This document shows, one piece after another, positions 1 through 61,555 of a stretch of DNA of 64,000 nucleotides (its first letter is position 1; each line of letters starts with the position of its first letter). The notes beneath the pieces are model-generated. The model ran no database searches. It saw nothing but the letters and a program-made list of their open reading frames with translations, and was not told the origin of the DNA. A program made the translations under genes and the position numbers. This stretch comes from Candidatus Nomurabacteria bacterium (GTDB lineage: Bacteria; Patescibacteriota; Minisyncoccia; Phycocordibacterales; UBA918): NCBI GenBank assembly GCA_020632015.1, contig JACKGI010000001.1, positions 87,574 through 151,573 on the forward strand, given 5' to 3'.

Positions 1-2
1 TT

Positions 3-998
3 TCAGCCTCAATCCTAAATGGTTATCGAAACGGCTTAGATGACGACCCTCAACTTAGTGCTTTACTTACTAGTGGGGGAGACGGGGTTGATTTAACCTT
101 CGCTTCTTCGATGACACCGTTTATCTTGGCGGCAGTCTTTTTGGTAGCATCGATTGTCATCGCCAACAAGCTTGGCGCTAATGGAGCCGGCGCAGCAATT
201 AGTACTGGTAAAAACCTCTCAGGCAAGCTTCGTCGTGGAGTGACCAGAACTGCAGGAGGAGCAACTGCAGGAGTTGCTGCTTATGGAGGTCGTAAATTTA
301 TTGGTGGCACAGCCAATAGAATAGCTGAAAATGCAGCAATACAAAGACTTGCAAGACGCGGAGGAATGGCTGGTATTGTAGGTAGGGCTGTTGCTAATAC
401 GGCACATTACGGTAGGACAGCTAGCTTTGATGCCAGAAATGTAGGAGGTCTTGGAAAAGCAACGGGACTAGGTGAAGGTAAGAAGGGTGGTTATGCTAAT
501 GATCAAAAGGAGCAAGAGAAGAAGGACAAGGAAAGGTCTGAGCGGTACTCAACTCAAGAAGATGATCAATTCTACAAAGATGCTGGTGAAGGAGTTGAGC
601 AAATTAAAAATCAATACGATCAGATCATTAAGAATATCAATCAAACTGTCTCAGACCTTTCTAAAGAGACTAATCCAGCTAGAAGGCAAGCTTTGTATCA
701 ACAACTAAGAGATCAAGAGGCTGCTAAAACTACCATTGAAAAAGATACCTCGACTCAAGATGCAAAAGAATTCAACTACGTACGAAAAAACAATAAGAAG
801 ATGAGATTAAATACTTACGCAGAGACAGTAGAAAGGAGAGGTGAAGATTTTGGTGGTTGGAGGAAGTTCTTAACTGATCAACAGGCCAATACTAGGTCTG
901 CCGGTGCAATAAGGAAAGAAAAAAGTGATGTTCAAAAACTAGTGGATTTTCTTCAAGACAAGGACAAGGGAGGGGGAAACAGTAAGGATGAAGAATAA
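3..998 (+). CDS. membrane-anchored Gly/Ala-rich protein with charged C-terminal half; possibly 5'-truncated by window edge
   Basis: Track ORF 111-998. The same frame has no stop back to nt 3. TM helix PFILAAVFLVASIVIANKL, then a G/A-rich segment, then a K/E/D/Q-rich region. First gene of the T4SS-like cluster. Confidence 0.5.
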   Translation, partial: SASILNGYRNGLDDDPQLSALLTSGGDGVDLTFASSMTPFILAAVFLVASIVIANKLGANGAGAAISTGKNLSGKLRRGVTRTAGGATAGVAAYGGRKFIGGTANRIAENAAIQRLARRGGMAGIVGRAVANTAHYGRTASFDARNVGGLGKATGLGEGKKGGYANDQKEQEKKDKERSERYSTQEDDQFYKDAGEGVEQIKNQYDQIIKNINQTVSDLSKETNPARRQALYQQLRDQEAAKTTIEKDTSTQDAKEFNYVRKNNKKMRLNTYAETVERRGEDFGGWRKFLTDQQANTRSAGAIRKEKSDVQKLVDFLQDKDKGGGNSKDEE

Positions 999-1007
999 AA
1001 ATTAATT

Positions 1008-1514
1008 ATGCCCATACAAACACAAACCCAACAATTGCTTGAAGAAAGACTTTCTGTTGTTCCAAAAGAAGTAAGGTCAGTAATCTGTGGCGACAAACTC
1101 AATGAGATTGTACGAGCAATTCAAATTGATTTTTCACTAACAGATATACAGTCAAACAGATTATCCGATGAAATTTTGTTAACCTTACTATTCTTTTACC
1201 CAACCATCAATCTAGATAATAGAATATTAGAGTCTTTAGGTATAGATACAGAGGCGTCCGGAAAAATTAGCTCCTACGTACAACAATCGTTGTTTGCTCC
1301 AATGAGTGGTATATACGAACAAACAAACGAAATGTTTGTTACTGATGAAGCAAAATCGTACAAAACTGTACCAGAAGTAACCGCCTCCATAGCAACCCCA
1401 AATATCCGCACCATGCAGGGCGATATCAAAGCTACTTCACAAGAGGATTTGCTTAAAGGAAAGCAAGAAACAAAAATCGACGACGACACACCTCGTTGGG
1501 GTAACCAAACCTAA
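1008..1514 (+). CDS. hypothetical soluble protein in T4SS-like cluster
   Basis: 168-aa ORF starting 9 nt after the upstream stop, co-directional. No TM segment or recognisable motif. Confidence 0.45.
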   Translation: MPIQTQTQQLLEERLSVVPKEVRSVICGDKLNEIVRAIQIDFSLTDIQSNRLSDEILLTLLFFYPTINLDNRILESLGIDTEASGKISSYVQQSLFAPMSGIYEQTNEMFVTDEAKSYKTVPEVTASIATPNIRTMQGDIKATSQEDLLKGKQETKIDDDTPRWGNQT

Positions 1515-1530
1515 CTTAGAGTGATCAATA

Positions 1531-1587
1531 CTCACGCAATGTATTCTGAGTGGTCGCGGGGAGTGTGTGAAGAATACATTGCGTGAG
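1531..1587. promoter_or_regulatory. perfect 17-bp inverted repeat (stem-loop) between cluster genes
   Basis: Arms ctcacgcaatgtattct (1531-1547) and agaatacattgcgtgag (1571-1587) with a 23-nt GC-rich loop and no T-tract. TATAAT at 1636-1641 follows. Confidence 0.5.
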
Positions 1588-1649
1588 CGTTGGGGATTGT
1601 TGGCAGAATTGTTACTTTTCTTAAGTTGCAACATGTATAATGGTGTTGT

Positions 1650-2090
1650 ATGCGTTTTGAAGTTCCTCAGTTTATTGAAGTTGAAGACAAAATTTTTGGC
1701 CCATTGACTTGGCGTCAATTCTTATACGTTGGTGGGGGAGTCGGAATGGCAGTGGTAATGTTTTTTACATTACCTTTCATATTCTTTCTAATACTAGGTT
1801 TGCCTTTAGGTCTACTGTCAGCCGCTCTGGCTTTTTATCCAGTCAACAACCGACCTTTTTCTTTTTTTCTTGAGGCAATAATTAACTACACTAAAGGGCA
1901 ACGCCTTTATTTATGGAAACAAAGCGCGGATGTTGTCTATAAAAGAAATCCTGCAACTCAAACCGACTCCTACCGCGCATCACCGTACTCAACACCGATG
2001 TCTGCAAATCTAAACCGCTCTAAACCAAAACAAAACATTTCCAGTCTTGCTCGAAAGTTAGAATTACAAGCCTTACAAAAATCAGAGTAA
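1650..2090 (+). CDS. PrgI/VirB3-like small T4SS membrane protein
   Basis: N-terminus MRFEVPQFIEVEDKIFGPLTWRQFLY followed by two TM helices, which is the PrgI-family pattern as I recall it. It lies just upstream of a VirB4-type ATPase. Confidence 0.6.
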   Translation: MRFEVPQFIEVEDKIFGPLTWRQFLYVGGGVGMAVVMFFTLPFIFFLILGLPLGLLSAALAFYPVNNRPFSFFLEAIINYTKGQRLYLWKQSADVVYKRNPATQTDSYRASPYSTPMSANLNRSKPKQNISSLARKLELQALQKSE

Positions 2091-2092
2091 AT

Positions 2093-2734
2093 ATGCCAAC
2101 CACTAATGCAGCAACTCAAGATTTTGTCTCAATTAGAGACATAAAAGAAAATGTCGTAATCGGTAAGGATGGGCAGATGTTAATGTTGCTTTTGGCCTCT
2201 TCTATTAACTTTGCTTTAAAATCAATCGATGAACAGCGGGCGGTACTTAGTCAGTTTCAGAATTTTTTGAATACTTTGGATTTTACTTTGCAGATTTATG
2301 TTCAATCTAGAAGACTAAACATCGAACCATACTTGGAGCTTTTGTCTGGCCTCAAAGATAAACAAGACAACGAACTAATGCAGATTCAGCTTCGTGAATA
2401 CGTTGAGTTCATTAAAACTTTTACCACGAATGTAGACGTGATGAGTAAAAACTTTTTTGTTGTCGTCCCGTATACACCCTCAAAAATTAACATCACAAAG
2501 GGTATAACTAATCTTTTCACTCCTGGCCAAAAAAATGCAGCCCTACCAAATGACATGCAATTTGAAGAACATCGTGTTCAACTCGAACAAAGAGTAGGGG
2601 TAGTTACTGAAGGATTAGCTAGGGTTGGGGTACGTACGATTACTTTAGGCAACGACGAACTGGTAGAACTTTTTTATCATATTTATAATCCGGGTGACCA
2701 AACGGGTTCAGCACCTATAGTTGATAACGTATAA
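2093..2734 (+). CDS. T4SS-associated protein of unknown function
   Basis: 213 aa, tightly packed between the prgI-like and virB4-like genes. No TM segment. Confidence 0.45.
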   Translation: MPTTNAATQDFVSIRDIKENVVIGKDGQMLMLLLASSINFALKSIDEQRAVLSQFQNFLNTLDFTLQIYVQSRRLNIEPYLELLSGLKDKQDNELMQIQLREYVEFIKTFTTNVDVMSKNFFVVVPYTPSKINITKGITNLFTPGQKNAALPNDMQFEEHRVQLEQRVGVVTEGLARVGVRTITLGNDELVELFYHIYNPGDQTGSAPIVDNV

Positions 2735-2737
2735 TCT

Positions 2738-4537
2738 ATGGCTCTTTTCGATTTCATACAACCAAAAAAAACTGACTCTGGGATAACAAATCCGCGGGAC
2801 CAACTAATGACTTTGACTGATGTTATCGCTCCTTCAGCGATAAGTGTTACTCCAAGAAGTATCAATATTAGCGGAGTGGTAACCAGAGTTTATTACGCTG
2901 TTTCATACCCAAGATTTTTGAACGATGGATGGATGGAACCAGTCCTAAACTTAACTCGTGAATTAGATGTTTCAATATTTGTACACCCAATCGACACGGC
3001 TGAGACATTGAAAAAATTCCAGAAGAAAGTGGCTGAAGTACAAAGCCAAATCAACATCAAAGCCGAAAAAGGGGAGGTGCGTGACCCACAACTAGAAGCC
3101 GCTTACCGCAATCTCGAAGAGCTTCGCGACAAACTTCAACAAGCTGAAGAAAAGCTCTTTAATGTCGGTTTCTATTTGGCACTTTATGGAAAGGATGAGG
3201 TAGAAATCAATAAAGCAGAAAATGACATCCGTGGAATTTTGGACGCGAGAATGATTGCAATGAAGCCGGCTTTGTTCCAACAAGAGCAAGGTGTAAAAAG
3301 TATTTTCCCTTTGGCCGGAGATGAGCTTTTGGTTCATAGTAAATTCAACTCGGCTCCATTATCTAGTTTCTTTCCTTTTACATCTTTCGACCTTACTTCT
3401 GACAGTGGGATTCTATACGGTATCAACCGACACAACTCTTCTCTTGTCCTGTTCGACCGCTACAGCCTAACCAACTACAACTCAGTGACCTTCGCCACCT
3501 CTGGAGCAGGTAAGTCATACACTTTAAAGCTAGAAATTCTTCGTTCTCTTATGTTTGGTACTGAAGTGATTGTACTTGACCCAGAACGTGAGTACGAATA
3601 CTTGGCTGAAGCAACTGGTGGAAGGTTTTTTAATATCTCTCTTTCATCAAATCACCACGTGAATCCTTTTGACCTTCCACCACCAGGAGAAGATGAGGAT
3701 CCAAAAGACGTACTCCGAACTCACATCATCGAAATGGTGGGACTATTCCGACTCATGCTTGGAGGCTTGTCGGCAGAAGAAGAGACTTTGATTGACCTCG
3801 CGATTCAAGAAACCTACGCCCTAAAAGATATTACCGGCGATGCCGATTTCTCAAACATGGAACCACCGCTACTGACCGACTTTGAAATGGTCTTGGCTGG
3901 AATGGAAGGGAGTGGCTCTTTGATAGCACGCCTACAAAAATACACTTCTGGTACCTGGTCTGGATTTATGAATGCTCCAACCAACGTGGACATAAACCAA
4001 AAATTCGTTGTTTTCTCACTTCGAGACATGGAAGATGAACTTAAGACCATCGCGATGTACATCATCACAAACTTCATCTGGGGCTCTATCCGTCGACGCA
4101 TGGCCAAGCGACTAATGGTTATTGACGAAGCTTGGTGGATGATGAAATCTGAAGACACTGCTTCTTTCTTGTTTAGCCTAGCTAAGCGTGGTCGTAAATA
4201 CTACTTAGGAATCGCAACTATCACTCAAGACGTAGATGACTTCCTTCGCTCACCATACGGCGTGCCGATGATTACCAACTCTTCTATCCAACTTTTGATG
4301 AAACAATCACCAACTGCGATAGATAACATCCAAAAAACTTTCAACCTCACTGATGAAGAAAAGTTGTTACTACTGGAGTCCACGGTTGGGGAGGGGATTT
4401 TCTTTGCTGGACTAAAACACGTCGCTATCAAAATCATCGCGTCATACACTGAAGATCAAATCATCACCTCAGACCCATCACAGCTCTTACAAATCAAAGC
4501 GGCGCGGGCAGAACTTAGAGCAGCAAGAGAAGGATAG
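2738..4537 (+). CDS. virB4: VirB4/TraC/TrbE-type type IV secretion ATPase
   Basis: 599 aa. Walker A is TSGAGKSYT and Walker B is RLMVIDEAWWMM. The C-terminal RGRKYYLGIATITQ motif region is typical of VirB4-family ATPases. Confidence 0.85.
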   Translation: MALFDFIQPKKTDSGITNPRDQLMTLTDVIAPSAISVTPRSINISGVVTRVYYAVSYPRFLNDGWMEPVLNLTRELDVSIFVHPIDTAETLKKFQKKVAEVQSQINIKAEKGEVRDPQLEAAYRNLEELRDKLQQAEEKLFNVGFYLALYGKDEVEINKAENDIRGILDARMIAMKPALFQQEQGVKSIFPLAGDELLVHSKFNSAPLSSFFPFTSFDLTSDSGILYGINRHNSSLVLFDRYSLTNYNSVTFATSGAGKSYTLKLEILRSLMFGTEVIVLDPEREYEYLAEATGGRFFNISLSSNHHVNPFDLPPPGEDEDPKDVLRTHIIEMVGLFRLMLGGLSAEEETLIDLAIQETYALKDITGDADFSNMEPPLLTDFEMVLAGMEGSGSLIARLQKYTSGTWSGFMNAPTNVDINQKFVVFSLRDMEDELKTIAMYIITNFIWGSIRRRMAKRLMVIDEAWWMMKSEDTASFLFSLAKRGRKYYLGIATITQDVDDFLRSPYGVPMITNSSIQLLMKQSPTAIDNIQKTFNLTDEEKLLLLESTVGEGIFFAGLKHVAIKIIASYTEDQIITSDPSQLLQIKAARAELRAAREG

Positions 4538-4599
4538 TGAGACTCAGGCGTAGCACCTCGGCTACACCACCAATCTATTCTGATATAAAAAAACCTGGG

Positions 4600-4650
4600 G
4601 TATACCCCGCCCTAACTTTTTTCAAAAGTTAGGGCGGGGTATACTTTTCT
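4600..4650 (+). terminator. rho-independent terminator after virB4-like gene
   Basis: Perfect ~21-bp stem, gtataccccgccctaactttt / aaaagttagggcggggtatac, followed by ttttct. The right arm also carries TATACT (4640-4645), 7 nt before ATG 4653. Confidence 0.8.
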
Positions 4651-4652
4651 AT

Positions 4653-5702
4653 ATGCCCGCACCACAGCCGCTCAACGAGCAGTTTAACCAAAACGCTAGT
4701 TTACAACCCAACTACAAACAGGTGGGGGTGCGAAATGTATCAGTTGAAAAAAACCGTGGTGGGGCCAGTAACAACCCCAAGACCACTAGCCAAGTGGAAA
4801 CTAAGCGACGGTTTGCTGCTAATGACCCAAGGTATGACAATCATACTAGGAATGTAAATGTGGAAGGGAGACAAGGTCGGCCGACGACGGATGCAAAGTT
4901 TAGACAAAGCTACGCAGAAAAAGGCCTCCAACCACAAGGGATAAATCAGAAAAAGAAAAGTGGTGTCATACATCATTCTGAGAAAAAAATCGACAACCAC
5001 ACATTCAGCAATAATGTTCACCAACTGTACAAAACTCTTGAGGATTTAAAACAGGGTGATATTGATTCTGCCCTCGATGAGGCTTTGGATGCACTTGATG
5101 CTGATGATGAGGCAATGGAAAGAGAGGCTAAAAAAAGAGGTGCTCTTGTAAAAACATTAAAAGCTTATTTGCTATACCGCGCTTATAAAAGAGTCACCGC
5201 ACTTAATATTAAAATATTTTCTGTCGGACTTTATTTGTGGTCACTAGTCCAAATACCAATGGCCCTTTTTAGCTTGGTTGCTTTTGGGCTTACCGCTGCT
5301 GTTTACCAATTGGATGAATTATTGCAGCCCCAGACAAAGGACGGTATGTTAGTTACCGCTACAAAAAGTGTTGCCGGTTTTTTTGTTGAAAAAGCAGTAA
5401 CTGTAGGTAGTTACATAAACGACGTTGTGGAGGGTATGTTCAACATAGATATATCCATATTTCTACCTGATAATATGTTTATGATTACCTGGATTTTTAT
5501 TATTGGCTTTTTTGGGATATTTCAATTATTCTTAATGTGGCTATTATATAAATTAGTACTATTAAAGCCACTAGATGGAAAATCTTCTGGTTTAAAATAC
5601 AGCACTCTTCTATTAGCTATGGTTGGTTATAGCATCCCTCTACTCAACCTATTTCCATGGTTTACTGTTTGGGCAGCGGCTGTGTGGGTGAGGCCAAAAT
5701 AA
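4653..5702 (+). CDS. polytopic membrane protein (VirB6/TrbL-like by topology only)
   Basis: 349 aa. The N-terminal ~170 aa is polar and looks disordered. The C-terminal half has about 5 hydrophobic helices. Position after VirB4 fits a T4SS channel component. Confidence 0.45.
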   Translation: MPAPQPLNEQFNQNASLQPNYKQVGVRNVSVEKNRGGASNNPKTTSQVETKRRFAANDPRYDNHTRNVNVEGRQGRPTTDAKFRQSYAEKGLQPQGINQKKKSGVIHHSEKKIDNHTFSNNVHQLYKTLEDLKQGDIDSALDEALDALDADDEAMEREAKKRGALVKTLKAYLLYRAYKRVTALNIKIFSVGLYLWSLVQIPMALFSLVAFGLTAAVYQLDELLQPQTKDGMLVTATKSVAGFFVEKAVTVGSYINDVVEGMFNIDISIFLPDNMFMITWIFIIGFFGIFQLFLMWLLYKLVLLKPLDGKSSGLKYSTLLLAMVGYSIPLLNLFPWFTVWAAAVWVRPK

Positions 5703-5751
5703 AAAACACCGAACATTCCATTGTTCGGCGCCAATAATCAGAAGTTCAGCA

Positions 5752-6111
5752 CTAATTCCCAGTGCTGGCTATGTCAGGCCTTTGATAAATGTGACATAAA
5801 TATGTCATCCCGACTTGGACCCTTCTATCTTTTGGGCCAACAAGGTTGTTCATGCGCCTGAAATTCTCTTCAGTTCCGCCGCAATGTCGGACAAACTCAG
5901 AAATAAGCTCTGGGCTCTCTGCCCTTAAAAAGCGAGCGTTGTAGTGAACATTTCTACAGTTTGTACAGGCGTATTCAAGTGAATCCATATCTACTTTCTC
6001 CACCTGTATTTTGAAGCCAAAATCGTAGCTGATTGCTGGGGTACTTTCCAACGCCAGCATGAAGGCTGTGATGAGTGCGGCCAACATCGCCGCGAGTTTT
6101 TTGCTAGCCAT
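5752..6111 (-). CDS. small secreted protein, probably acquired (SD-led, GC-richer, antisense to cluster)
   Basis: Start chosen at MASKKLAAMLAALITAFMLAL (signal-like). AGGAGG at 6117-6122 lies 5 nt upstream. The track ORF extends to 6255 without support. Confidence 0.5.
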   Translation of the reverse strand: MASKKLAAMLAALITAFMLALESTPAISYDFGFKIQVEKVDMDSLEYACTNCRNVHYNARFLRAESPELISEFVRHCGGTEENFRRMNNLVGPKDRRVQVGMTYLCHIYQRPDIASTGN

Positions 6112-6306
6112 ATCGGCCTCCTGCGCATAGCGCGTTATTTCTATGAAAATCAACGAACTCATTTCGTGTGCGAAATGCACACCTAATTTATTTATAACAC
6201 GTTGTGGATAACCCGCAAGGGCAGGGAAGGTGCTTTTTTGACACCCTTTCCCCAAATTAACTAATAGTGGGCCTAAGCAATGTTTTAGTCTGATATTATT
6301 ATAAGT

Positions 6307-7281
6307 ATGAGGAAACTAACCCTATTCTGTTTAGCTTTATTTATATTATCTACTTCTCCTGCCTTAGCACAGTTTGAAGATTTACTTGGTGGCGCCAGTT
6401 CTGTTTATGCTGACCCAGAAATTACTCTGAAACCTTCTTCTCCTGAACCAGGCGAAAGAGTAACGGCTTCGGTCAATTCTTATATACCAAGTGTCAACGG
6501 CTCAGCTATTAGTTGGAAACTGGACGGTAAAGAAATCCCTGGGTCAGCCAATAAAAATAGCGTTAGTTTTGTGGCTGGTAAAGACGGAATGGAACAAACC
6601 ATCACCACCACCTTCAACACCCCAAAAGGCCAGACAATTGTTGTTAAGGATGAATTTACACCAAGATACTTAGACATAATAATCGAACCACAAACTCACG
6701 TACCTAGTTTTTATCTTGGACGTGCGATGCCGAGCACTGGGAGTTTAGTAAACGCAACGCTTTTAATTAGTGGTTTGAATTCATACTCTGACTACTTGTT
6801 CACTTGGCGAGTAGGAAGAACAGTTGTTGGTGGGAGTTCACAAAGAGGTAAAAACTTCACTTCCTTCGAAACTACTTTAGATAGATACATGCTTCTCTCG
6901 GTTGAGGTGACTGGGACAGATGGTAGTTTGGTTGCCAAAAAGACTGTTTCTGTTCCTTCTGTTAGTCCTTTCTTAAAATTCTACGAGTATAGTCCTCTAC
7001 TTGGTTTATCAAACCAACCAATCAACAAAAGCCTTTCTCTTATTGGAAATGTCACCACAGTAAGAGCCGAGCCTTATTATTTAGACTCAAGAGTTTACAA
7101 CAACCCAGCCATTGCAGACTGGACACTCAACAAAGCCTCTTACACAGACACGAACTCAAACCCATATGAAGTCACATTAAAAAGAGGTGGCACTTCTGGT
7201 CGTAGCACTTTAAATTTTCATGTTCGTGATACAGCCCAATTATTACAAGGAGCTAGAGGTAGTATTGGCATAAACTTATAG
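6307..7281 (+). CDS. secreted protein of unknown function
   Basis: 324 aa with signal peptide MRKLTLFCLALFILSTSPALAQ and a beta-rich composition. Confidence 0.55.
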   Translation: MRKLTLFCLALFILSTSPALAQFEDLLGGASSVYADPEITLKPSSPEPGERVTASVNSYIPSVNGSAISWKLDGKEIPGSANKNSVSFVAGKDGMEQTITTTFNTPKGQTIVVKDEFTPRYLDIIIEPQTHVPSFYLGRAMPSTGSLVNATLLISGLNSYSDYLFTWRVGRTVVGGSSQRGKNFTSFETTLDRYMLLSVEVTGTDGSLVAKKTVSVPSVSPFLKFYEYSPLLGLSNQPINKSLSLIGNVTTVRAEPYYLDSRVYNNPAIADWTLNKASYTDTNSNPYEVTLKRGGTSGRSTLNFHVRDTAQLLQGARGSIGINL

Positions 7282-7282
7282 T

Positions 7283-8473
7283 ATGAAACGTCCACTCATC
7301 ATAATCATCGGGGTAGTACTAGTCTTTATTTTGATAGGCGCTTGGATGTATGTGCTTTTCTTTATGGAAAGTAGCGACACGAATACTTTTGCTGATTTGA
7401 ATTTTGAAAACTCTACTGAAGAATTTACTGAAGTAGAAAATATGGGTGGAGGAGAACCAATAGTTAATGTCAATGATTTATCGAGATTGAGACAACTGAC
7501 CACCACACCAGTAGTTGGTTTTCAGGAAGTTATGAAAAACTCCAGCTCAACTCCTTTGGTTTATTACATCAGCGCTGGTACTGGACATATTTTCTCTATT
7601 GATTTAGAAACCGGTGAAGAAAAAAGAGTTTCTGGTACTACTATCCCAAGTACCGAGTCTGGAGTAATTACACCAGATGGACAGTACGCACTGATTCAAT
7701 CTGGTTTTGGTTCAACTAAAGAAGCGACTGTTGGTATGATTTCGGCTGACGAAGATCAATTGGTTGGTGAAGTCACTCTAAATAATATTTATTCTTTTAG
7801 TGAAACTGCTAGTGGCACATTTTTAATTGCTAGGAAATCAGACAATAGTGTTTCTGCTTCGCACTACCTACCAGCTAGTGGGGAGGAGGTAAGCTTATTC
7901 TCAGTTCCTTTTGGAGAAGTGGTAATAGATTGGGGTACACAAGCCACAGACAATCACTATCTTTACCCGAAGCCAAACAGTTTGCTTGAAGGGTATTTGT
8001 ACCAAGCCTCCAACAAGGGCATTAAAAGACTGCCAGTCGATGGTTTTGGACTCTCCGCCAAAGGAAGCAATGATTATGTAATCAGTAGCTCGCAGGCTAA
8101 CAAAAAATACAGTACTCAGATTTTAAATATGTCAGAAAATTTTGTTAGTAATTACCGTCTTGATGTAATGCCTGAAAAATGTGTTTCTTTGTCTACTAGA
8201 CTTTCTTTTATTTGTGGAATTTCAGATTCGCCAAGCTACTCTCAACAAACACCTGATGACTGGTATCAAGGTACAGTTTCATATAATGATGATTTACTAG
8301 AAATAAATCTTAAAGATGGAGTAAATTCATACCTCCTAGACATTGAGGAGGAGAGTGGAAGAATTTTGGACATCACTAATTTGGAAACCAACCAAGATGA
8401 TTCTCGACTTTACTTTATTAATAAAAATGACGGCACTCTATGGTCTTATCTATTAACTGAGAATAATAATTAA
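7283..8473 (+). CDS. N-terminally anchored extracytoplasmic protein (possible beta-propeller-like repeats)
   Basis: 396 aa. TM helix LIIIIGVVLVFILIGAWMYVLFF. Starts 2 nt after the upstream stop. Confidence 0.5.
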   Translation: MKRPLIIIIGVVLVFILIGAWMYVLFFMESSDTNTFADLNFENSTEEFTEVENMGGGEPIVNVNDLSRLRQLTTTPVVGFQEVMKNSSSTPLVYYISAGTGHIFSIDLETGEEKRVSGTTIPSTESGVITPDGQYALIQSGFGSTKEATVGMISADEDQLVGEVTLNNIYSFSETASGTFLIARKSDNSVSASHYLPASGEEVSLFSVPFGEVVIDWGTQATDNHYLYPKPNSLLEGYLYQASNKGIKRLPVDGFGLSAKGSNDYVISSSQANKKYSTQILNMSENFVSNYRLDVMPEKCVSLSTRLSFICGISDSPSYSQQTPDDWYQGTVSYNDDLLEINLKDGVNSYLLDIEEESGRILDITNLETNQDDSRLYFINKNDGTLWSYLLTENNN

Positions 8474-8476
8474 TTT

Positions 8477-9910
8477 ATGAAAAGAACACTAATTAAATTC
8501 TTACCCATAATAATCCTCTTTATTATTCCCATCCTTAGTTTCGCTCAAGAAACAGTTGGTTACACTCCGCTTGTTGGACTTCCAGGTGTAGCTGATTCAA
8601 ACGGCTCTGGTGAAGTTGATTTTGAAAAGTTCATCAACACTTTGTATTACATGTCTATTGGGGTAGCAGCTCTTCTGGCGGTAATTAAAATTGTGATTGC
8701 GGGAGTGAAGTACATGCTGAGTGATGTTGTAACCACAAAAGGTGAAGCAAAAAATGATATCAAAGGTGCTCTAATTGGTCTCTTAGTAGTGATGGGGGCG
8801 GTTTTAATCCTTACTATAATAAACCCACAACTTGCAAATATTGACGCTGAGTTTGATAGTACAAAGACTGAGATACCTGAGTATGTTCCTCAAGTAAACA
8901 ACCAGCGTTTTGGTCCACTTGGAACTATGCTTCCAGGAGACGTTCCTTACCCTATACCCTCTACTGTATTAGCCAGTTCTCCTGCACCAGAAGGCCTTAA
9001 TGATTTGGAAAAAGCACAGTGGGTTTGTGAAAACCAAGTACTTGATGAAGAAAATAAGTACTGCCCATTAGGACAAAAGAACTCTCAAGTTGCACCAAAT
9101 CTACCTAGTCAGTCACTAGCTTATTGTTATGTTGGTGAGTGGGATGCTTTTGGTGAAAAATGTGTTGTGAGACAAGCTGATATAAAAAACTTTGAAGAGT
9201 CTGGTGGGGGAGTTGGTGGAACAAAAACCGTAACTGAAAGTGAGTTTAGTAGTGAGATGGGTAGTAAAGAATTAGAACCACCCCCAGAAAGACCAATTGA
9301 TGAAACAGCATCACTTTGTCCGGCTGGAACAACTGAAATACCATCTGCTTATAAATACCCACCAAGAAACGGAGTGGTGAATCCTATAACTGGCGACTAC
9401 ACAGACTGTGAACCAAATCCAGACACTTATGGTACATATGGAACAGGTTCTAACGGCGTCTGCCCAGCTGGCCACGACACCATCTACGATCCAGCCGAAT
9501 TAATAGACCCAGACACAAACACCTATGGCCCAACACCCGCACCAAGATGTGTACTATCTGAAGGAGGGAGTGCAAGTGGAGGTGGTGGTTACAACACCTC
9601 TTGTGTAGCAGCCGCTTGTTGTAATGTTGGAACTATTCAATCTGGAGCAAGACCAGGAGAACCAGCGGTGTGTGTAGACTCTAGTGGTAATGTTGTTGGT
9701 GTTCCTGAAACGTCAAATAATTCTGGAACAGGTGGCGTAGGGACAACTAACCCTTGCCCTCCTGGACAAATACTAGATCCTTCATTGAATGGACTATCCT
9801 TAGGAGGAATTAGTTGTGTTAACGATCCAAGTTTAACTCAAGACGAAATAAATGGAGCACTTTTTTGTGCCGCCCTCGGCAAAAGATATTCAAACGGAAC
9901 TTGTATATAA
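8477..9910 (+). CDS. T4SS pilin-like (VirB2/TrbC-type two-helix N-terminus) fused to a long Cys-rich C-terminal region
   Basis: Signal peptide, then FEKFINTLYYMSIGVAALLAVIKIVIAGVKYM...IKGALIGLLVVMGAVLILTIINP (two TM helices with a charged loop). About 350 aa with more than 20 Cys and G/P/T-rich stretches follow. Confidence 0.5.
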   Translation: MKRTLIKFLPIIILFIIPILSFAQETVGYTPLVGLPGVADSNGSGEVDFEKFINTLYYMSIGVAALLAVIKIVIAGVKYMLSDVVTTKGEAKNDIKGALIGLLVVMGAVLILTIINPQLANIDAEFDSTKTEIPEYVPQVNNQRFGPLGTMLPGDVPYPIPSTVLASSPAPEGLNDLEKAQWVCENQVLDEENKYCPLGQKNSQVAPNLPSQSLAYCYVGEWDAFGEKCVVRQADIKNFEESGGGVGGTKTVTESEFSSEMGSKELEPPPERPIDETASLCPAGTTEIPSAYKYPPRNGVVNPITGDYTDCEPNPDTYGTYGTGSNGVCPAGHDTIYDPAELIDPDTNTYGPTPAPRCVLSEGGSASGGGGYNTSCVAAACCNVGTIQSGARPGEPAVCVDSSGNVVGVPETSNNSGTGGVGTTNPCPPGQILDPSLNGLSLGGISCVNDPSLTQDEINGALFCAALGKRYSNGTCI

Positions 9911-9914
9911 CTAA

Positions 9915-9955
9915 CAAAACAAAAAAGCGCAACCGGCGCTTTTTTGTTTTGTTTT
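9915..9955. terminator. bidirectional terminator between convergent genes
   Basis: aaaaaagcgcaaccggcgctttttt with A/T tracts on both sides. Confidence 0.6.
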
Positions 9956-9976
9956 TAATTTAGTATTCAACAATAC

Positions 9977-10705
9977 TTAACGATGTTTTTTAACGAAGTA
10001 CTCCTGAGAAATCATAGTTAGGTTGCTAACTACAAAATACAAAGCAATTGCTGCTGAAATTGTATAAGCCACTACTGTAATCAATACCGGCATTACAAAC
10101 CTCATTTGTGTTTGCATATTGCGCATAAAATCATCTTTCAAATTAGGTGCTGCCCCCTCTTCTTTTGGAGGTAGTTTTGGCATAGTGAGATTTACATGAA
10201 TAAATTGAGTAACACCAGCAATTAAAGCTAGAAATAAACTCCGTTCACTAATGTCGATAATACTTAGAAAGTTCATGGTCACAACCACTGGTTCGGACAC
10301 GAAGGAATATAGCAGGTCTATATTTATGTCCGGTAAAGGTACACCTCCTCCTTTGTATACTGAGAAATACAAAGCAATCACGATTGGGATTTGAAGGAAG
10401 ATTAAAAAAATACTAGCTAGTGGGTTCATTCCTGCTTCTTGGTAAATTGCCAACATGGCTTGGGACTGAGCTTGTTTGTCGTCTTTGTGTTTTTCTCTAA
10501 CCTCTTTAAGTTTTGGCTCGATTTCCCTCATTACTTTTTGGGTTTTTACCGCCTTAATCGAAACAGGAAGAAGGATTGTTTTCACAAGTAAAACAGTTGC
10601 AATAATTGCTAAACCAACATCTCCACCGGGAATAATATCAATAAAAAAAACCAGTGTGTTATAAACTGGGTCGAAAAATAAATTGTGCCAAATTGAACTA
10701 AACAT
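9977..10705 (-). CDS. yidC: membrane protein insertase YidC (short form)
   Basis: 242 aa polytopic protein in the conserved rpmH-rnpA-yidC order. LLVKTILLPVSIK and MNPLASIFLIFLQIPI are YidC/Oxa1-like segments. Confidence 0.85.
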   Translation of the reverse strand: MFSSIWHNLFFDPVYNTLVFFIDIIPGGDVGLAIIATVLLVKTILLPVSIKAVKTQKVMREIEPKLKEVREKHKDDKQAQSQAMLAIYQEAGMNPLASIFLIFLQIPIVIALYFSVYKGGGVPLPDINIDLLYSFVSEPVVVTMNFLSIIDISERSLFLALIAGVTQFIHVNLTMPKLPPKEEGAAPNLKDDFMRNMQTQMRFVMPVLITVVAYTISAAIALYFVVSNLTMISQEYFVKKHR

Positions 10706-10717
10706 AATTTCCTTATT

Positions 10718-11053
10718 CTACGCACCTTTCACCACTTCAGCAATTGACTCTTGCACAAACTCCTCGGCTGTTTTTCTAGTTAGAGAATTAAAACTTGGTT
10801 TAAGCACCACAATCAAAACACCTAGAGGATTTGTTGGTGTGTCTAATTTCTTTAGCACGGCATAAACCCTTCTCCTTAATGTGTTTCTTCTAACAGCACT
10901 TTTAGCAACTTTTTTACCAACCACTACTGAAACTTTTGTTTTTTCTTCTTCTTTAGAACGAATAATGGTTAGGTGGGGGAAGTGTTTTTTATTGCCAGTC
11001 CTAAAATATTCAGAGAATTCAGATTTTGATAATCTGTTTGATTTTTTAAACAT
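10718..11053 (-). CDS. rnpA: RNase P protein component
   Basis: Basic ~111-aa protein between rpmH and yidC, with an RNR-like motif (VRRNTLRRRVY). ATG at 11053 is preferred over the TTG at 11068 in the track. Confidence 0.8.
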   Translation of the reverse strand: MFKKSNRLSKSEFSEYFRTGNKKHFPHLTIIRSKEEEKTKVSVVVGKKVAKSAVRRNTLRRRVYAVLKKLDTPTNPLGVLIVVLKPSFNSLTRKTAEEFVQESIAEVVKGA

Positions 11054-11096
11054 AATTACTTGAATCAATTGATTATGTCACAAAACAAAAAAAGCT

Positions 11097-11246
11097 CTAT
11101 TGAGCTTTTTTTACTGTAAGTTGTGCACGACCTTTTCGGCGACGAGCTTGGAGTATCTTACGACCAGCAGTGGTTGCTGAACGAACTAAAAACCCGTGGG
11201 TGGTAGCACGCTTTCTCTTACTTGGTTGGTAGGTTCTTTTTGACAT
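11097..11246 (-). CDS. rpmH: 50S ribosomal protein L34
   Basis: Hand translation gives [49 protein letters not shown] (49 aa). It is below the ORF-track length cutoff. Confidence 0.9.
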
Positions 11247-11319
11247 ATCTGTAGAATTAGTACTTGGGAACTATACAGGAATATTTAAAAAATTCAATAG
11301 TGGGGGAGGTTGTTTAGAG

Positions 11320-11423
11320 TTGTTCACAGTTTATACACAGTTGCGTTTTTTGATTCTTAAAAAGGGTTTTTAAAATCTGAAATTTTTGAAAAAGATTTAC
11401 AGTTTTCCACACAGAGGTATAAT
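11320..11423. promoter_or_regulatory. DnaA-box-like sites and dnaA promoter
   Basis: ttgttcaca 11320-11328, ttatacaca 11331-11339 and ttttccaca 11403-11411, compared with the consensus TTATCCACA. TATAAT at 11418-11423. Confidence 0.5.
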
Positions 11424-11452
11424 GCAATTCACTGTTCGAGTTTACATAAGTT

Positions 11453-12838
11453 ATGAATCCAATTTCTCACTCACCATCCAACAATAGTATCGTTCAAACT
11501 GAACAAGTAGATGTTAAGCAATTGTGGGATGATGCTTTAGTTAAGATTGAACTCTCTATTACTACAGCCAACTTTAAGACTTGGTTTCGTGACACACACA
11601 TCGTCTCTCTTGAGGATGGCACAGCAACTGTTGGTGTACCAAGTGTTTTTGTTAAAGACTGGTTGCAAGATAAATTCCATAACATGGTTCTTAAAACGCT
11701 TCGTGACCTTACTCCACACGTAAGAAGTGTTGAATATACCGTTGCTCAACGAAATGAAAGAAAGCGAGAATCAAACAAAAATCAAACAGTAAACGCTTCT
11801 CTTCCTTTGGAAGACTATTATATAAACAAAAGTGACAACCTAAATCCAAAGTATTCTTTTGAAAATTTTGTAGTTGGACCATATAACGCCTTGGCTCATG
11901 CGGCAGCAAAAACAGTTAGTGAGAAGCCAGGTATCACATATAATCCACTGTTTATTTATGGTAAGACTGGCCATGGTAAGACCCACCTTATCCAAGCAGT
12001 AGGGAACCAAATAAAGAAAACTGGTAAGAAGGTATTTTATGTTACCAGTGAACGGTTTGCAGTTGATTACTTCAACTCACTCCAAAACGGAACGGCTAAT
12101 AATTTCAAAGATCGTTATCGTCAATATGATGTTTTGATTATGGACGATGTTCAGTTCTTGGCAACTAAAGAAAAGACTCAGGAAGAACTTTTCCATCTTT
12201 TTAATGCACTACACGACACAAACAAACAAATCGTTTTCTCTAGCGATCAACACCCAGCTCTTTTGAATGGGATGGAAGAAAGACTTCAGTCTCGATTTGC
12301 TCAAGGTATGATTGTTGACTTACCGGCTCCAGATTTGGAATCTAGAGCAGCTATTCTTAGGGCAAAATCTGCTCAAAACAACATAACCCTTCAAGATGAC
12401 GTGGTTGATCACTTAGCGCAGAGTATTGAGGGTAATGTGAGGGAGTTGGAAGGGGCTCTTAATACCATCATGTGCCAATCCCAGCTCCTTGGACGAACTT
12501 TATCAATTGATGAGGTTAGAACTATTATCAAAAATAGTTCTCGACCAAGAAAAACTCTAGCTATTGCTGATGTAGTTGACAAAGTTGCTCGATACTACGA
12601 TATAGACCAGGCAAGTATCTATGAAAAAACTAGACGGAAAGAGGTTGTTAAACCGAGGCAGATAATTATGTATATTTTGAGGGAAGATTTTCAGGTTTCT
12701 TACCCTGCTATCGGAAAGAAGTTGGGAGGTAGGGACCACACAACAGTAATTCACTCCTGTGAGAAAATTAAAGCTGAATTAAAAGGCAACTCTGAACTTG
12801 AAGAGGAGATAACTCAAGTCAGACTTCTCTTGAAATAA
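11453..12838 (+). CDS. dnaA: chromosomal replication initiator DnaA
   Basis: Walker A GKTGHGKTHL, Walker B IMDDVQFL, and C-terminal DNA-binding helix region GGRDHTTVIHSCEKI. Confidence 0.95.
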   Translation: MNPISHSPSNNSIVQTEQVDVKQLWDDALVKIELSITTANFKTWFRDTHIVSLEDGTATVGVPSVFVKDWLQDKFHNMVLKTLRDLTPHVRSVEYTVAQRNERKRESNKNQTVNASLPLEDYYINKSDNLNPKYSFENFVVGPYNALAHAAAKTVSEKPGITYNPLFIYGKTGHGKTHLIQAVGNQIKKTGKKVFYVTSERFAVDYFNSLQNGTANNFKDRYRQYDVLIMDDVQFLATKEKTQEELFHLFNALHDTNKQIVFSSDQHPALLNGMEERLQSRFAQGMIVDLPAPDLESRAAILRAKSAQNNITLQDDVVDHLAQSIEGNVRELEGALNTIMCQSQLLGRTLSIDEVRTIIKNSSRPRKTLAIADVVDKVARYYDIDQASIYEKTRRKEVVKPRQIIMYILREDFQVSYPAIGKKLGGRDHTTVIHSCEKIKAELKGNSELEEEITQVRLLLK

Positions 12839-12842
12839 TTTT

Positions 12843-12874
12843 AAAAACCGCTTCCTAATTAGGAAGCGGTTTTT
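12843..12874 (+). terminator. terminator after dnaA
   Basis: aaaaaccgcttcctaattaggaagcggttttt. Confidence 0.7.
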
Positions 12875-12879
12875 AAAAT

Positions 12880-22597: not shown

Positions 22598-22678
22598 AAT
22601 TATTATCATAATAATAACATGTGTGTTTGAGGACGATGGTCTATTTACGGACTCAGATACGATTGCTATAGTGCAAAA

Positions 22679-42821: not shown

Positions 42822-42825
42822 TTCT

Positions 42826-45597: not shown

Positions 45598-45626
45598 GAC
45601 TGATGAGGTTGAGGTATAATTTTTAC

Positions 45627-58601: not shown

Positions 58602-58618
58602 ACATTCAATTTCTTACA

Positions 58619-59833: not shown

Positions 59834-59835
59834 AA

Positions 59836-61551: not shown

Positions 61552-61555
61552 ACAC

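What the first reader, a model, noticed from the sequence alone, without database searches (positions are those of the whole stretch)
1..9910. Minimal VirB4/PrgI-type T4SS-like cluster adjacent to the replication origin
The co-directional genes are as follows:
- a membrane G/A-rich protein, with its frame open to the window edge
- a 168-aa protein
- a PrgI/VirB3-like two-TM protein
- a 213-aa protein
- a VirB4 ATPase (GAGKSYT, MVIDEAW)
- a polytopic membrane protein (VirB6-like topology)
- two exported proteins
- a VirB2/TrbC-like pilin fused to a Cys-rich tail

No relaxase, VirD4 coupling protein, VirB11 or lytic transglycosylase is visible in the window. Such reduced VirB4-centred clusters are known to occur in CPR genomes, but their function is unresolved; proposals include DNA uptake, conjugation remnant and host interaction. 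Most components here have no recognisable family.
Basis: partly seen in the sequence, partly recalled or inferred. Interest (0 to 1): 0.55.

Follow-up and report, generated by a model that had tools for sequence, protein, structure and literature searches.

The report
Patescibacteria-type type IV secretion gene cluster
This is the chromosomal type IV secretion (T4SS) gene cluster that ultra-small CPR/Patescibacteria carry next to their replication origin; it is real and strongly conserved, but this kind of cluster was already described in 2023-2025 papers, so the finding is correct rather than new.

Summary
All nine co-directional ORFs are at the stated coordinates, the ATPase is a true VirB4, and no relaxase, coupling protein, VirB11 or transglycosylase lies in the window or in 9 kb recovered upstream.

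- The edge-truncated first gene is the C-terminal half of a 617-aa TrbL/VirB6-like protein, so the VirB6 candidate is that gene, not the 349-aa protein.
- The 213-aa protein is TrsD-like, a separately encoded VirB4 N-terminal domain.
- The cluster extends about 5.5 kb beyond nt 1, with two more conserved exported proteins.
- A small minus-strand secreted-protein gene (5752-6111) was missed.

The order ksgA, U299, U312, TrbL, p168, PrgI, TrsD, VirB4, p349, p324, p396/pilin, yidC, rnpA, rpmH, dnaA, dnaN recurs in most of 80 Paceibacteria (Ca. Kaiserbacteria-like) species.

This matches the Patescibacteria T4SS surveyed by Quinonero-Coronel et al. 2025 and shown essential in a Saccharibacterium by Wang et al. 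2023.

- p324 is a secreted protein of three Ig-like domains.
- p396 is a membrane-anchored beta-propeller.
- The pilin carries a 16-Cys tail of about 360 aa.
- A 1.6-kb cassette (4516-6104) is replaced between strains that are 99.5% identical on either side.

Substrate and direction of transport remain unknown.

The parts
1..998 (+). C-terminal 332 codons of a 617-aa polytopic TrbL/VirB6-like protein with a long hydrophilic G/A/K/E-rich tail (an 'extended VirB6'). The full gene is L002 5606-7459.
   Evidence: The frame is open to nt 3. L002 is 99.9% identical to the window and gives the full ORF. It has 7 TM-like segments. Pfam support: precomputed PF19590 TrbL_3; PF04610 TrbL at E 1e-4, 22.5 bits, below the 25.9 cut-off; 5 of 27 family members hit TrbL and one hits TrbL_4 at 9e-7. 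tblastn detects it in 58 of 80 loci at the same position.
1008..1514 (+). p168: soluble, presumably cytoplasmic protein of unknown fold. A fast-evolving but conserved cluster member.
   Evidence: It has no TM segment. No Pfam, NCBIfam or PDB family matched. An iterative profile finds it in 66 of 80 loci, in the slot before prgI.
1650..2090 (+). PrgI/VirB3-like small membrane protein.
   Evidence: PF12666 at E 1.2e-10, 42.2 bits against a 27-bit cut-off. Present in 78 of 80 loci immediately before trsD. Its stop is 3 nt before the trsD start.
2093..2734 (+). TrsD-like protein: a separately encoded N-terminal domain of VirB4.
   Evidence: It matches positions 100-249 of NF045975 VirB4_plasma (E 2.2e-9), while the next gene matches positions 274-893 of the same model. 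It also matches NF041427 TrsD/TraD at E 6e-4 and precomputed PF26593 TraC-like. Present in 80 of 80 loci.
2738..4537 (+). VirB4 ATPase lacking its N-terminal domain. Walker A GAGKSYT is at nt 3503-3523 and Walker B MVIDEAW at nt 4115-4135.
   Evidence: NF045971 conju_CD1110 at 351 bits against a 325-bit cut-off. PF19044 at E 3e-26. The closest solved structure is 4AG5, the Thermoanaerobacter VirB4 C-terminal domain, at E 2e-42. The best 120 of at least 8000 homologous clusters are 86-99% identical.
4599..4645 (+). 20-bp-stem hairpin followed by a T-run, terminator-like, between the virB4 stop and the p349 start. It is single-copy in the window and absent from strain L001.
   Evidence: In L001 only 21 nt separate virB4 from its p304 gene.
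4516..6104 (.). Strain-variable cassette: the last codons of virB4, p349, and the convergent small secreted-protein gene.
   Evidence: The window and L001 are 99.5% identical at 1-4515 and 6105-11890, with no blastn alignment in between. p349 and L001's 304-aa protein share 42% identity over only the C-terminal 194 aa.
4653..5702 (+). p349: a low-complexity hydrophilic N-terminal half plus a C-terminal domain of 3-4 TM segments. A conserved but very fast-evolving cluster member, with no detected relation to VirB6 or to the pilin.
   Evidence: TM segments are. A profile of the membrane domain hits exactly one ORF in 67 of 80 loci, always in the slot after virB4. The pilin profile hits none of the ORFs in the post-virB4 slot. 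No Pfam family matched. The only PDB hit is weak (AopB, E 8e-4).
5752..6111 (-). Small secreted protein gene (119 aa, signal-peptide-like N-terminus, 4 Cys), convergent with p349.
   Evidence: The ORF is. AGGAGG lies 6 nt upstream of the ATG at 6111. A minus-strand terminator at 5732-5705 follows the stop directly. No homolog was found in the 80 loci. L001 has a different 65-71-aa secreted ORF at this place.
6307..7281 (+). p324: a secreted protein made of a signal peptide and three tandem Ig-like beta-sandwich domains.
   Evidence: AlphaFold2 model with pLDDT 91.7 and pTM 0.77. Foldseek finds only generic tandem Ig-like proteins such as Hoc 3SHS, SiiE 2YN5 and SGBP-B 6E57. Present in 69 of 80 loci. 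It has 292 homologous clusters, none with a Pfam domain.
7283..8473 (+). p396: a bitopic protein with an N-terminal TM helix (aa 3-27), a disordered linker (aa 31-59) and an extracytoplasmic WD40-like beta-propeller.
   Evidence: AlphaFold2 model with pLDDT 89.5 and pTM 0.80. Foldseek top hits are eIF3i, RACK1, G-beta and the 2GOP propeller, with TM about 0.5-0.6. Present in 69 of 80 loci. A profile finds 3,521 representative clusters of uniform length, about 390-400 aa among the 150 listed.
8477..9910 (+). VirB2-like T4SS pilin: signal peptide, then two hydrophobic helices (aa 59-77 and 97-115; the Pfam domain is aa 51-114, nt 8627-8818). It is fused to a G/P/S/T-rich tail of about 360 aa with 16 Cys and recurring C-P-x-G motifs.
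   Evidence: PF18895 at 29.6 bits against a 26.6-bit cut-off. NF045849, the Mbov_0395 pilin-like family, at E 1.3e-4. Cys positions and tail composition are, TM segments and motifs. Only the first 120 aa or so are conserved. Pilin ORFs in 68 of 80 loci are 122-499 aa long, median 278. It is the only pilin-like ORF in the window.
9913..9953 (.). 18-bp-stem bidirectional terminator between the convergent pilin and yidC genes. It marks the right-hand end of the cluster.
9977..14258 (.). Origin-region context: yidC (9977-10705, minus), rnpA (10718-11068, minus), rpmH (11097-11246, minus), dnaA (11453-12838, plus), dnaN (13164-14258, plus). DnaA-box-like sites are at 11331, 11403, 12972 and 13012.

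Best explanation
This is the vertically inherited, chromosomal T4SS of Patescibacteria, here from a Paceibacteria / Ca. Kaiserbacteria-like genome. It derives from the conjugation machinery of monoderm bacteria (MPF-FATA type).

Shown by the sequence:
- A membrane translocon set: PrgI/VirB3, a VirB4 ATPase split into TrsD plus a 599-aa motor, and an extended TrbL/VirB6 polytopic protein.
- One VirB2-type pilin.
- Six lineage-specific partners. Three are extracytoplasmic: U299, U312 and the p396 propeller, each with a single N-terminal hydrophobic segment. One is secreted (p324, three Ig-like domains). One is a membrane protein (p349). One is cytoplasmic (p168).

Inferred from how VirB4, VirB3, VirB6 and VirB2 work in studied T4SSs:
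- The VirB4 hexamer, docked on PrgI and TrbL, extracts pilin from the membrane and polymerises it into a tube or pilus.
- By VirB2 topology, the Cys-rich C-terminal tails would sit on the outer surface of that tube.
- The exported Ig-like, propeller and U299/U312 proteins form the wall-spanning or anchoring part, which in other monoderm systems is provided by VirB8-like and VirB1-like proteins.
- The machine works without a relaxase or a dedicated coupling protein, so it is not a conjugation device.

Inferred from literature on relatives: it serves the host-attached lifestyle as a contact conduit to the host cell. The most likely use is to take up host macromolecules, nucleic acids above all, because these organisms cannot make nucleotides. 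Protein export to the host is the main alternative.

Rough probabilities, given that the system is functional: import about 0.45, effector export about 0.35, adhesion or other about 0.2.
For: Identity
- VirB4 passes the curated CD1110 cut-off, at 351 bits against 325. Its nearest solved relative is a monoderm VirB4, 4AG5.
- TrsD matches model positions 100-249 and VirB4 matches positions 274-893 of one full-length VirB4 model.
- PrgI and the pilin domain both score above their Pfam cut-offs.

Functional and selected, not a remnant
- The order of 11 genes is conserved in most of 80 species.
- VirB4 is more conserved than DnaN, YidC and KsgA in every locus, and more than DnaA in 41 of 60.
- All ORFs are intact, and several have 1-3-nt gene junctions suggesting translational coupling.

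Not conjugative
- No relaxase, T4CP or integrase lies in the 64-kb window or the 9 kb upstream.
- The flanks are housekeeping genes, and GC content is the same as the surroundings.

Surface machinery
- p324 and p396 give confident models of exported Ig-like and propeller proteins.
- The pilin tail has 16 Cys.

Literature
- The same component set, the lack of a relaxase and the position near dnaA, dnaN, rnpA, rpmH and ksgA are described for Patescibacteria, Paceibacteria included (PMC12102498).
- The T4SS genes, with their pilins, are essential in S. epibionticum, while comEC is dispensable (PMC10633639, PMC12857230).
- Import of nucleotides or nucleic acids has been proposed (PMC11665869, PMC12102498).
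- Tubular structures at the host interface, together with host-RNA uptake, were seen in a cultivated Microgenomatia strain (bioRxiv 10.64898/2026.06.21.733656).
Against: - No experiment exists for any Paceibacteria T4SS. Essentiality is shown for one Saccharibacterium only.
- Substrate and direction are unknown everywhere; PMC11665869 calls the role 'completely unknown'.
- The VirB6 assignment is below the Pfam cut-off for this protein itself.
- No VirB8-like or VirB1-like component was found. The roles given to p324, p396, U299, U312, p349 and p168 rest only on linkage and predicted location.
- A T4CP could be encoded elsewhere in the genome. The 2025 survey finds VirD4 homologs in most Patescibacteria genomes, usually far from virB4. 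That could not be checked here.
- A pilin with a 360-aa tail may not polymerise the way canonical VirB2 does.
Confidence: 0.85

Rival explanations
1. It is a conjugation system, or the decaying remnant of an integrated conjugative element: a DNA-export machine whose relaxase and coupling protein lie elsewhere or have been lost.
For: VirB4, TrsD, PrgI and the pilin find their best matches in models built from conjugative elements of monoderms, namely CD1110/CTn2, the Mycoplasma ICE families Mbov_0397 and Mbov_0395, and pGO1 TrsD. T4CP homologs exist elsewhere in many Patescibacteria genomes (PMC12102498).
Against: No relaxase, T4CP, integrase or repeat boundaries lie in 73 kb. The cluster sits at the same place between ksgA and yidC/dnaA in most of 80 species, which a mobile element would not do. 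VirB4 is conserved more strongly than neighbouring housekeeping proteins, the opposite of decay. GC content matches the flanks. Only 109 relaxases were found in 3,035 Patescibacteria genomes (PMC12102498).
Confidence: 0.04
2. It is an effector-export system. Proteins are delivered through the pilus or channel into or onto the host cell to manipulate it, as in the T4CP-less Ptl and Brucella VirB systems.
For: Precedents exist for T4SSs that export proteins without a T4CP (PMC12102498, PMC12857230). Wang et al. suggest the Saccharibacterial system 'may instead export proteins' (PMC10633639). A small secreted Cys-containing protein gene (5752-6111) sits inside the cluster in a strain-variable cassette, as an effector or surface-specificity factor might.
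Against: No effector has been identified in any Patescibacterium. The small gene has its own signal peptide, so it does not need the T4SS, and it is not conserved in the 80 loci. Nothing in the cluster resembles a chaperone or recognition module.
Confidence: 0.3
3. It is only a pilus or adhesion organelle. VirB4 assembles pilin-adhesin fusion subunits to attach to the host, and no substrate passes through.
For: The pilin carries a large Cys-rich tail that is variable between species. VirB2 topology would place that tail on the pilus exterior. The partners are Ig-like and propeller surface proteins. The variable parts evolve fast while the motor is nearly frozen.
Against: The same window already encodes type IV pilus genes, PilB-type at 20870-22705 and PilM at 41733-42821, and T4P is the demonstrated adhesion and motility organelle in Saccharibacteria (PMC10633639, PMC11665869). 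A conserved extended VirB6 channel protein suggests translocation.
Confidence: 0.15

Closest known systems
Patescibacteria-clade T4SS (survey of 3,035 genomes by Quinonero-Coronel et al. 2025, PMC12102498; S. epibionticum SEML1_0006-0019 in Wang et al. 2023, PMC10633639)
   Same: Same component set: TrsD, VirB4, PrgI/VirB3, VirB6 and a VirB2-like pilin. No relaxase or T4CP nearby. Chromosomal location next to dnaA, dnaN, rnpA, rpmH and ksgA, which the survey states explicitly for Paceibacteria.
   Different: There is a single pilin gene with a long Cys-rich tail, not the array of 2-11 short divergent pilins reported mainly for Saccharimonadia and Microgenomatia. No peptidase or lysozyme gene follows virB4, as one does in S. 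epibionticum. The Ig-like (p324), propeller (p396), p349, p168, U299 and U312 partners are not named in those papers.
Monoderm conjugative T4SSs of the MPF-FATA class (pGO1 Trs, pCF10 Prg, CTn2 of C. difficile, Mycoplasma ICE)
   Same: VirB4 is closest to the CD1110 and Mbov_0397 models. A separate TrsD occurs as in pGO1. PrgI is present as in pCF10. There are no outer-membrane core proteins (VirB7, VirB9, VirB10).
   Different: There is no relaxase, T4CP, VirB8-like (PrgL/TraM) protein, VirB1-like hydrolase or PrgB-type adhesin. It has a VirB2-type pilin, which Gram-positive systems lack. It is not on a mobile element.
T4CP-less or import-type T4SSs (Bordetella Ptl, Brucella VirB, H. pylori ComB, archaeal Ced)
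   Same: They operate without a dedicated coupling protein or relaxase. ComB and Ced import DNA, which is the function proposed for the Patescibacteria system.
   Different: Ptl, VirB and ComB are diderm MPF-T systems with a VirB7-10 core. The Ced match is negligible: CedB scores 36 bits against a 700-bit cut-off.

Membership tests
T4SS superfamily (defined by VirB4) | A VirB4-family ATPase with Walker A and B motifs, distinct from FtsK, HerA and VirD4. | tested here: met
   NF045971 at 351 bits against a 325-bit cut-off. The TraC, VirB4_CagE and VirB4_plasma models also hit across the full length. HerA DUF87 reaches only E 2e-6 over 60 residues. PDB 4AG5 matches at E 2e-42.
Patescibacteria-clade T4SS (PMC12102498) | VirB4 falls in the monophyletic Patescibacteria clade nested within MPF-FATA. 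| not tested
   No tree was built. Proxies agree: the best models are the monoderm families CD1110 and Mbov_0397, and all close homologs (up to 99% identical) that carry a name are from Kaiserbacteria, Nomurabacteria, Paceibacteria or Parcubacteria records.
Patescibacteria-clade T4SS (PMC12102498) | A TrsD homolog encoded next to virB4. | tested here: met
   The 213-aa protein matches the VirB4 N-terminal region at E 2.2e-9 and TrsD at E 6e-4 (below cut-off). It has precomputed PF26593. It lies 3 nt upstream of virB4 and is present in 80 of 80 loci.
Patescibacteria-clade T4SS (PMC12102498) | A PrgI/VirB3 homolog near virB4. | tested here: met
   PF12666 at 42.2 bits against 27. Present in 78 of 80 loci.
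Patescibacteria-clade T4SS (PMC12102498) | A VirB6/TrbL polytopic protein near virB4. | tested here: inconclusive
   The 617-aa, 7-TM protein scores 22.5 bits on PF04610 against a 25.9-bit cut-off. Five of 27 homologs hit TrbL and one hits TrbL_4 at 9e-7. The precomputed annotation gives TrbL_3. A family profile found no solved VirB6.
Patescibacteria-clade T4SS (PMC12102498) | A VirB2-like pilin near virB4. | tested here: met
   PF18895 at 29.6 bits against 26.6. The layout is a signal peptide followed by two hydrophobic helices. Pilin-like ORFs occur in 68 of 80 loci.
Patescibacteria-clade T4SS (PMC12102498) | No relaxase or T4CP in the neighbourhood, and a location near dnaA, dnaN, rnpA, rpmH and ksgA. 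| tested here: met
Patescibacteria-clade T4SS (PMC12102498) | Required for host-dependent (epibiotic) growth. | not testable with these tools
   Shown only for S. epibionticum by Tn-seq (PMC10633639).
Conjugative T4SS / ICE of monoderms (MPF-FATA) | A relaxase and a type IV coupling protein associated with the MPF genes. | tested here: not met
   Neither is present in 64 kb plus 9 kb upstream. The rest of the genome was not available.
Conjugative T4SS / ICE of monoderms (MPF-FATA) | Carried on a mobile element, with an integrase, a variable insertion site and atypical composition. | tested here: not met
   The chromosomal position is fixed across most of 80 species. No integrase was found. GC is 0.40-0.42 against 0.36-0.46 in the flanks.
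Conjugative T4SS / ICE of monoderms (MPF-FATA) | A VirB8-like (NTF2-fold) protein and a VirB1-like cell-wall hydrolase in the cluster. | tested here: not met
   No sequence match was found for any cluster protein. The p324 and p396 models are Ig-like and propeller folds, not NTF2. U299, U312, p168 and p349 could not be modelled. A LysM-Peptidase_M23 gene lies 10 genes upstream of virB4 on the other strand.
Archaeal Ced DNA-import system | A CedB-type ATPase. | tested here: not met
   NF041017 CedB scores 36.4 bits against a 700-bit cut-off, over about 75 residues around Walker B only.

The most novel reading that the evidence does not exclude
The cluster may contain a host-specificity module that diversifies by recombination. 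The post-virB4 membrane protein p349 and the convergent small secreted protein form a 1.6-kb cassette. That cassette is swapped wholesale between strains whose flanks are 99.5% identical. Together with the species-variable Cys-rich pilin tail, it would be the part that recognises or penetrates a particular host envelope. In that case the T4SS, and not only type IV pili and adhesins, would determine the host range of Paceibacteria.
Probability: 0.2. Interest if true: 0.6.

Novelty: already known. Interest (0 to 1): 0.3.

Why it matters
The Patescibacteria T4SS is one of the few conserved machines that could explain how a very large, mostly uncultivated branch of bacteria extracts what it needs from host cells. 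It is essential in the one species tested, and its substrate is unknown.

This locus adds no new kind of system, but it gives a clean Paceibacteria reference for the cluster:
- a full 11-gene conserved set with its boundaries;
- a split VirB4;
- two confidently modelled extracytoplasmic partners, Ig-like and propeller;
- a pilin with an adhesin-like tail;
- a strain-variable cassette.

These are concrete targets for structural and genetic work once a Paceibacterium can be manipulated.

Tried and rejected
- FtsK/HerA/CedB identity for the ATPase: rejected, with only marginal partial hits.
- p349 as VirB6 or as a second pilin: no support. There is no TrbL or pilin hit in 35 family members. The local pilin profile hits none of the ORFs in the post-virB4 slot and, within the window, only the 8477-9910 ORF. 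The weak AopB (T3SS translocator) hit at E 8e-4 is treated as unreliable for a membrane or low-complexity profile.
- p168 and p349 as non-conserved fillers: rejected. tblastn found them in only 1 and 13 loci, but iterative profiles recover them in 66 and 67 of 80 loci, one per locus.
- The minus-strand ORF 5752-6255 as noise: rejected for its 119-aa core, which has a Shine-Dalgarno sequence, a signal peptide and a terminator.
- Family assignment of U299, U312, p168 and p349 by scanning 28-35 members each against Pfam and by profile searches against PDB sequences: nothing found, apart from TSP3-type Ca-binding repeats in 4 of 29 U299 homologs and unrelated add-on domains in single U312 homologs.
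- T4SS-specific structural homologs of p324 and p396: only generic Ig-like and WD40-like matches.
- The hairpin at 4599-4645 as a repeated element: it is single-copy.
- RNA genes in the cluster: none.
- The promoter scan gave no more sites than shuffled sequence, so no promoter is claimed.
- DnaA boxes are not enriched window-wide, at 17 against 19.8 expected. Only their local clustering around dnaA is noted.

Full report

Yes. The nine + strand ORFs are at the stated coordinates. The first frame is open to the window edge. The quoted Walker motifs are in the 599-aa protein, at aa 256-262 and 460-466.

Three assignments pass curated thresholds:
- PrgI, PF12666, 42.2 bits against 27.
- The VirB4 CD1110 family, NF045971, 351 bits against 325.
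- T4SS_pilin, PF18895, 29.6 bits against 26.6.

The closest solved structure to the ATPase is the Thermoanaerobacter VirB4 C-terminal domain, 4AG5, at E 2e-42. TrwK of R388 is far behind. HerA, FtsK and CedB give only marginal partial matches.

**2. What lies beyond the window edge**

The exact 168-aa protein occurs on public contigs. One is a Logan assembly, L002, 99.9% identical to the window. Another is GCA_020428855.1, L001, whose VirB4 NCBI labels Candidatus Kaiserbacteria bacterium.

These contigs show three things:
- The edge-truncated 'G/A-rich membrane protein' is the C-terminal half of a 617-aa protein with seven TM-like segments.
- Its TrbL/VirB6 support is moderate. There is a precomputed TrbL_3 hit. 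PF04610 scores 22.5 bits, just under the 25.9 cut-off. Five of 27 homologs hit TrbL, and one hits TrbL_4 at 9e-7.
- Two further co-directional genes precede it, U299 and U312. Each has a single N-terminal hydrophobic segment.

Upstream of those lie ksgA, an APH-family kinase gene, uvrD and a divergent LysM-Peptidase_M23 gene. No relaxase or coupling protein is annotated there.

**3. The rest of the window**

The stretch 14-64 kb holds housekeeping genes: a PBP, TyrRS, RuvABC, PolA, Lnt, UppS and others. It also holds type IV pilus genes (a PilB-type ATPase at 20870-22705 and PilM at 41733-42821), two large PKD/CARDB surface proteins, a histidine kinase, and a block of zinc-ribbon membrane proteins.

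No T4CP, relaxase, VirB11 or lytic transglycosylase was found. All ORFs of 300 aa or more were covered. ORFs under 120 aa and a few 120-200-aa ORFs in this stretch were not scanned. One 492-aa ORF (45603-47081) has no family, but a T4CP P-loop would have been detected.

**4. The 213-aa protein**

It matches positions 100-249 of the full-length VirB4 model NF045975 at E 2.2e-9, and the TrsD/TraD family at E 6e-4. The next gene matches positions 274-893 of the same VirB4 model. VirB4 is thus encoded in two pieces, with start and stop codons 3 nt apart. This is the TrsD arrangement of pGO1. The 2025 survey reports TrsD as the most abundant T4SS component in Patescibacteria (PMC12102498).

**5. 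Conserved linkage**

A scan of species-representative genomes with VirB4 returned 583 confirmed loci. I kept the best 80, at 67-90% VirB4 identity, all of them Patescibacteria-type MAGs.

tblastn and ORF maps show a recurring order: ksgA, U299, U312, TrbL, a slot of about 170 aa, PrgI, TrsD, VirB4, a membrane-protein slot with 3-4 TM segments in most of the 13 mapped loci, p324, p396 with the pilin before or after it, then yidC and rnpA on the minus strand, dnaA and dnaN.

The two 'slots' looked unconserved by BLAST: p168 in 1 locus and p349 in 13. Iterative profiles recover them in 66 and 67 of 80 loci, exactly one hit per locus. They are therefore fast-evolving but genuine members. The second refutation criterion is also not met.

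*Relative conservation.* VirB4 is more conserved than DnaN, YidC and KsgA in every locus, and more than DnaA in 41 of 60. One caveat is that the loci were chosen by VirB4 similarity. The exported proteins sit at about 26-27% identity in the same loci. The best 120 VirB4 clusters in the large protein database are still 86-99% identical. p324 and p396 fall to about 45% in comparable relatives.

**6. The unknown components**

- p324 models with pLDDT 91.7 as a signal peptide plus three Ig-like beta-sandwich domains. Foldseek finds only generic tandem Ig-like surface proteins.
- p396 models with pLDDT 89.5 as a TM helix, a disordered linker and a WD40-like beta-propeller. Its family has 3,521 representative clusters; the 150 best listed are nearly all full-length, about 390-400 aa. 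It has no Pfam model.
- U299, U312, p168 and p349 gave no family by member-wise Pfam scans or by profile searches against PDB sequences.
- No VirB8-like or VirB1-like protein was identified.

**7. The pilin**

It has a signal peptide, then the VirB2-like two-helix domain (aa 51-114). A tail of about 360 aa follows, rich in G, P, S and T, with 16 Cys and recurring C-P-x-G motifs.

Only the first 120 aa or so are conserved among relatives. Pilin ORFs in 68 of 80 loci range from 122 to 499 aa, median 278, so tails are usual in this lineage. The window has a single pilin gene, unlike the pilin arrays reported for Saccharimonadia and Microgenomatia (PMC12102498).

From the known VirB2 topology, with both termini outside the membrane (my knowledge of F and T pili), the tail should be extracytoplasmic. 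The Cys content fits that.

**8. Transcription signals and a missed gene**

- A 20-bp-stem hairpin with a T-run follows the virB4 stop at 4599-4645. It is single-copy.
- An 18-bp bidirectional terminator at 9913-9953 closes the cluster.
It has AGGAGG 6 nt before the ATG, a signal-peptide-like start, four Cys, and a terminator at 5732-5705.
- Promoter-like matches do not exceed chance.

**9. Strain variation**

The window and L001 are 99.5% identical over 1-4515 and 6105-11890, but cannot be aligned over 4516-6104. In L001, p349 is replaced by a 304-aa protein. The two share 42% identity over the membrane domain only. The convergent small gene is replaced by a different secreted ORF.

This looks like replacement of a two-gene cassette by recombination. 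Its meaning is open.

**10. Comparison with what is known**

The cluster matches the Patescibacteria T4SS point by point, as described in the literature:
- VirB4 forms a Patescibacteria clade nested in MPF-FATA.
- The widespread components are TrsD, PrgI/VirB3, VirB6 and VirB2-like pilins.
- Relaxases are absent near virB4.
- In Paceibacteria the cluster sits next to dnaA, dnaN, rnpA, rpmH and ksgA (PMC12102498).

In Southlakia epibionticum the T4SS genes, including the pilins, are essential in co-culture, while comEC is dispensable. No coupling protein or relaxase was recognised there (PMC10633639, PMC12857230).

The role is still called 'completely unknown', with effector delivery or nucleotide and nucleic-acid import as the candidates (PMC11665869, PMC12102498). 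A 2026 preprint reports tubular structures, possibly T4SS pili, at the host interface of a cultivated Microgenomatia strain that acquires host RNA (10.64898/2026.06.21.733656).

**11. Verdict**

The finding is correct, but the kind of system and its genomic placement are already published.

- the true extent and membership of the Paceibacteria cluster;
- the correct VirB6 and TrsD assignments;
- the folds of two partners;
- the tailed pilin;
- the strain-variable cassette.

The mechanistic model is inferred, not shown here. In it, a split VirB4 motor on a PrgI/TrbL platform assembles a tailed VirB2 tube for host contact, without a relaxase or T4CP, most likely for uptake of host macromolecules.

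Noticed in passing
window 4516-6104 (compare L001 12508-13719): A 1.6-kb cassette is replaced between two strains whose flanks are 99.5% identical. It covers the last codons of virB4, the p349 membrane protein and a convergent small secreted-protein gene. The two p349 alleles share 42% identity, over the membrane domain only.
   Followed up: partly
window 5752-6111 (minus strand), terminator 5732-5705: An unannotated-looking minus-strand gene inside the T4SS cluster. It encodes 119 aa with a signal-peptide-like N-terminus and 4 Cys, and has a good Shine-Dalgarno sequence and its own terminator. It has no homolog in 80 related loci.
   Followed up: partly
window 4599-4645: An unusually long, perfect 20-bp-stem hairpin followed by a T-run, lying between the virB4 stop and the p349 start codon (which is 7 nt after the stem). 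It is single-copy in the window and absent from strain L001.
   Followed up: partly
window 20870-22705 (minus), 41733-44391 (plus): Type IV pilus genes elsewhere in the window: a PilB/GspE-type ATPase (MshEN + T2SSE), and PilM followed by three ORFs of about 170-180 aa with no family (possibly PilN/O-like). This is a second, separate surface-filament system.
   Followed up: no
window 30937-34479 and 35804-38185: Two large surface proteins (1180 aa with K319L-like PKD and Ig-like domains; 793 aa with CARDB). Small ORFs with no family lie between them. They are candidate adhesins.
   Followed up: no
window 57966-63945 (minus strand): A run of genes whose products start with an N-terminal zinc-ribbon (Zn_Ribbon_1/DZR). 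One is a 591-aa trypsin-like peptidase with an SH3 domain, and there is an adjacent 404-aa Cys-rich protein. This is an unusual paralogous block.
   Followed up: no
L002 4651-5589 against homologs in L011-L082: The U312 protein of this organism (312 aa) lacks the C-terminal extension of about 170-210 aa that most homologs have (most are about 450-530 aa). Some homologs carry extra Ig-like or F5/8-type-C domains.
   Followed up: partly
80 loci L011-L090: VirB4 is conserved more strongly than DnaN, YidC and KsgA in every locus, and more than DnaA in 41 of 60. This is striking for a 'secretion' ATPase in fast-evolving genomes.
   Followed up: yes
window 45603-47081: A 492-aa ORF with no Pfam family. 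The exact protein appears only on three short (2-5 kb) metagenome contigs.
   Followed up: no
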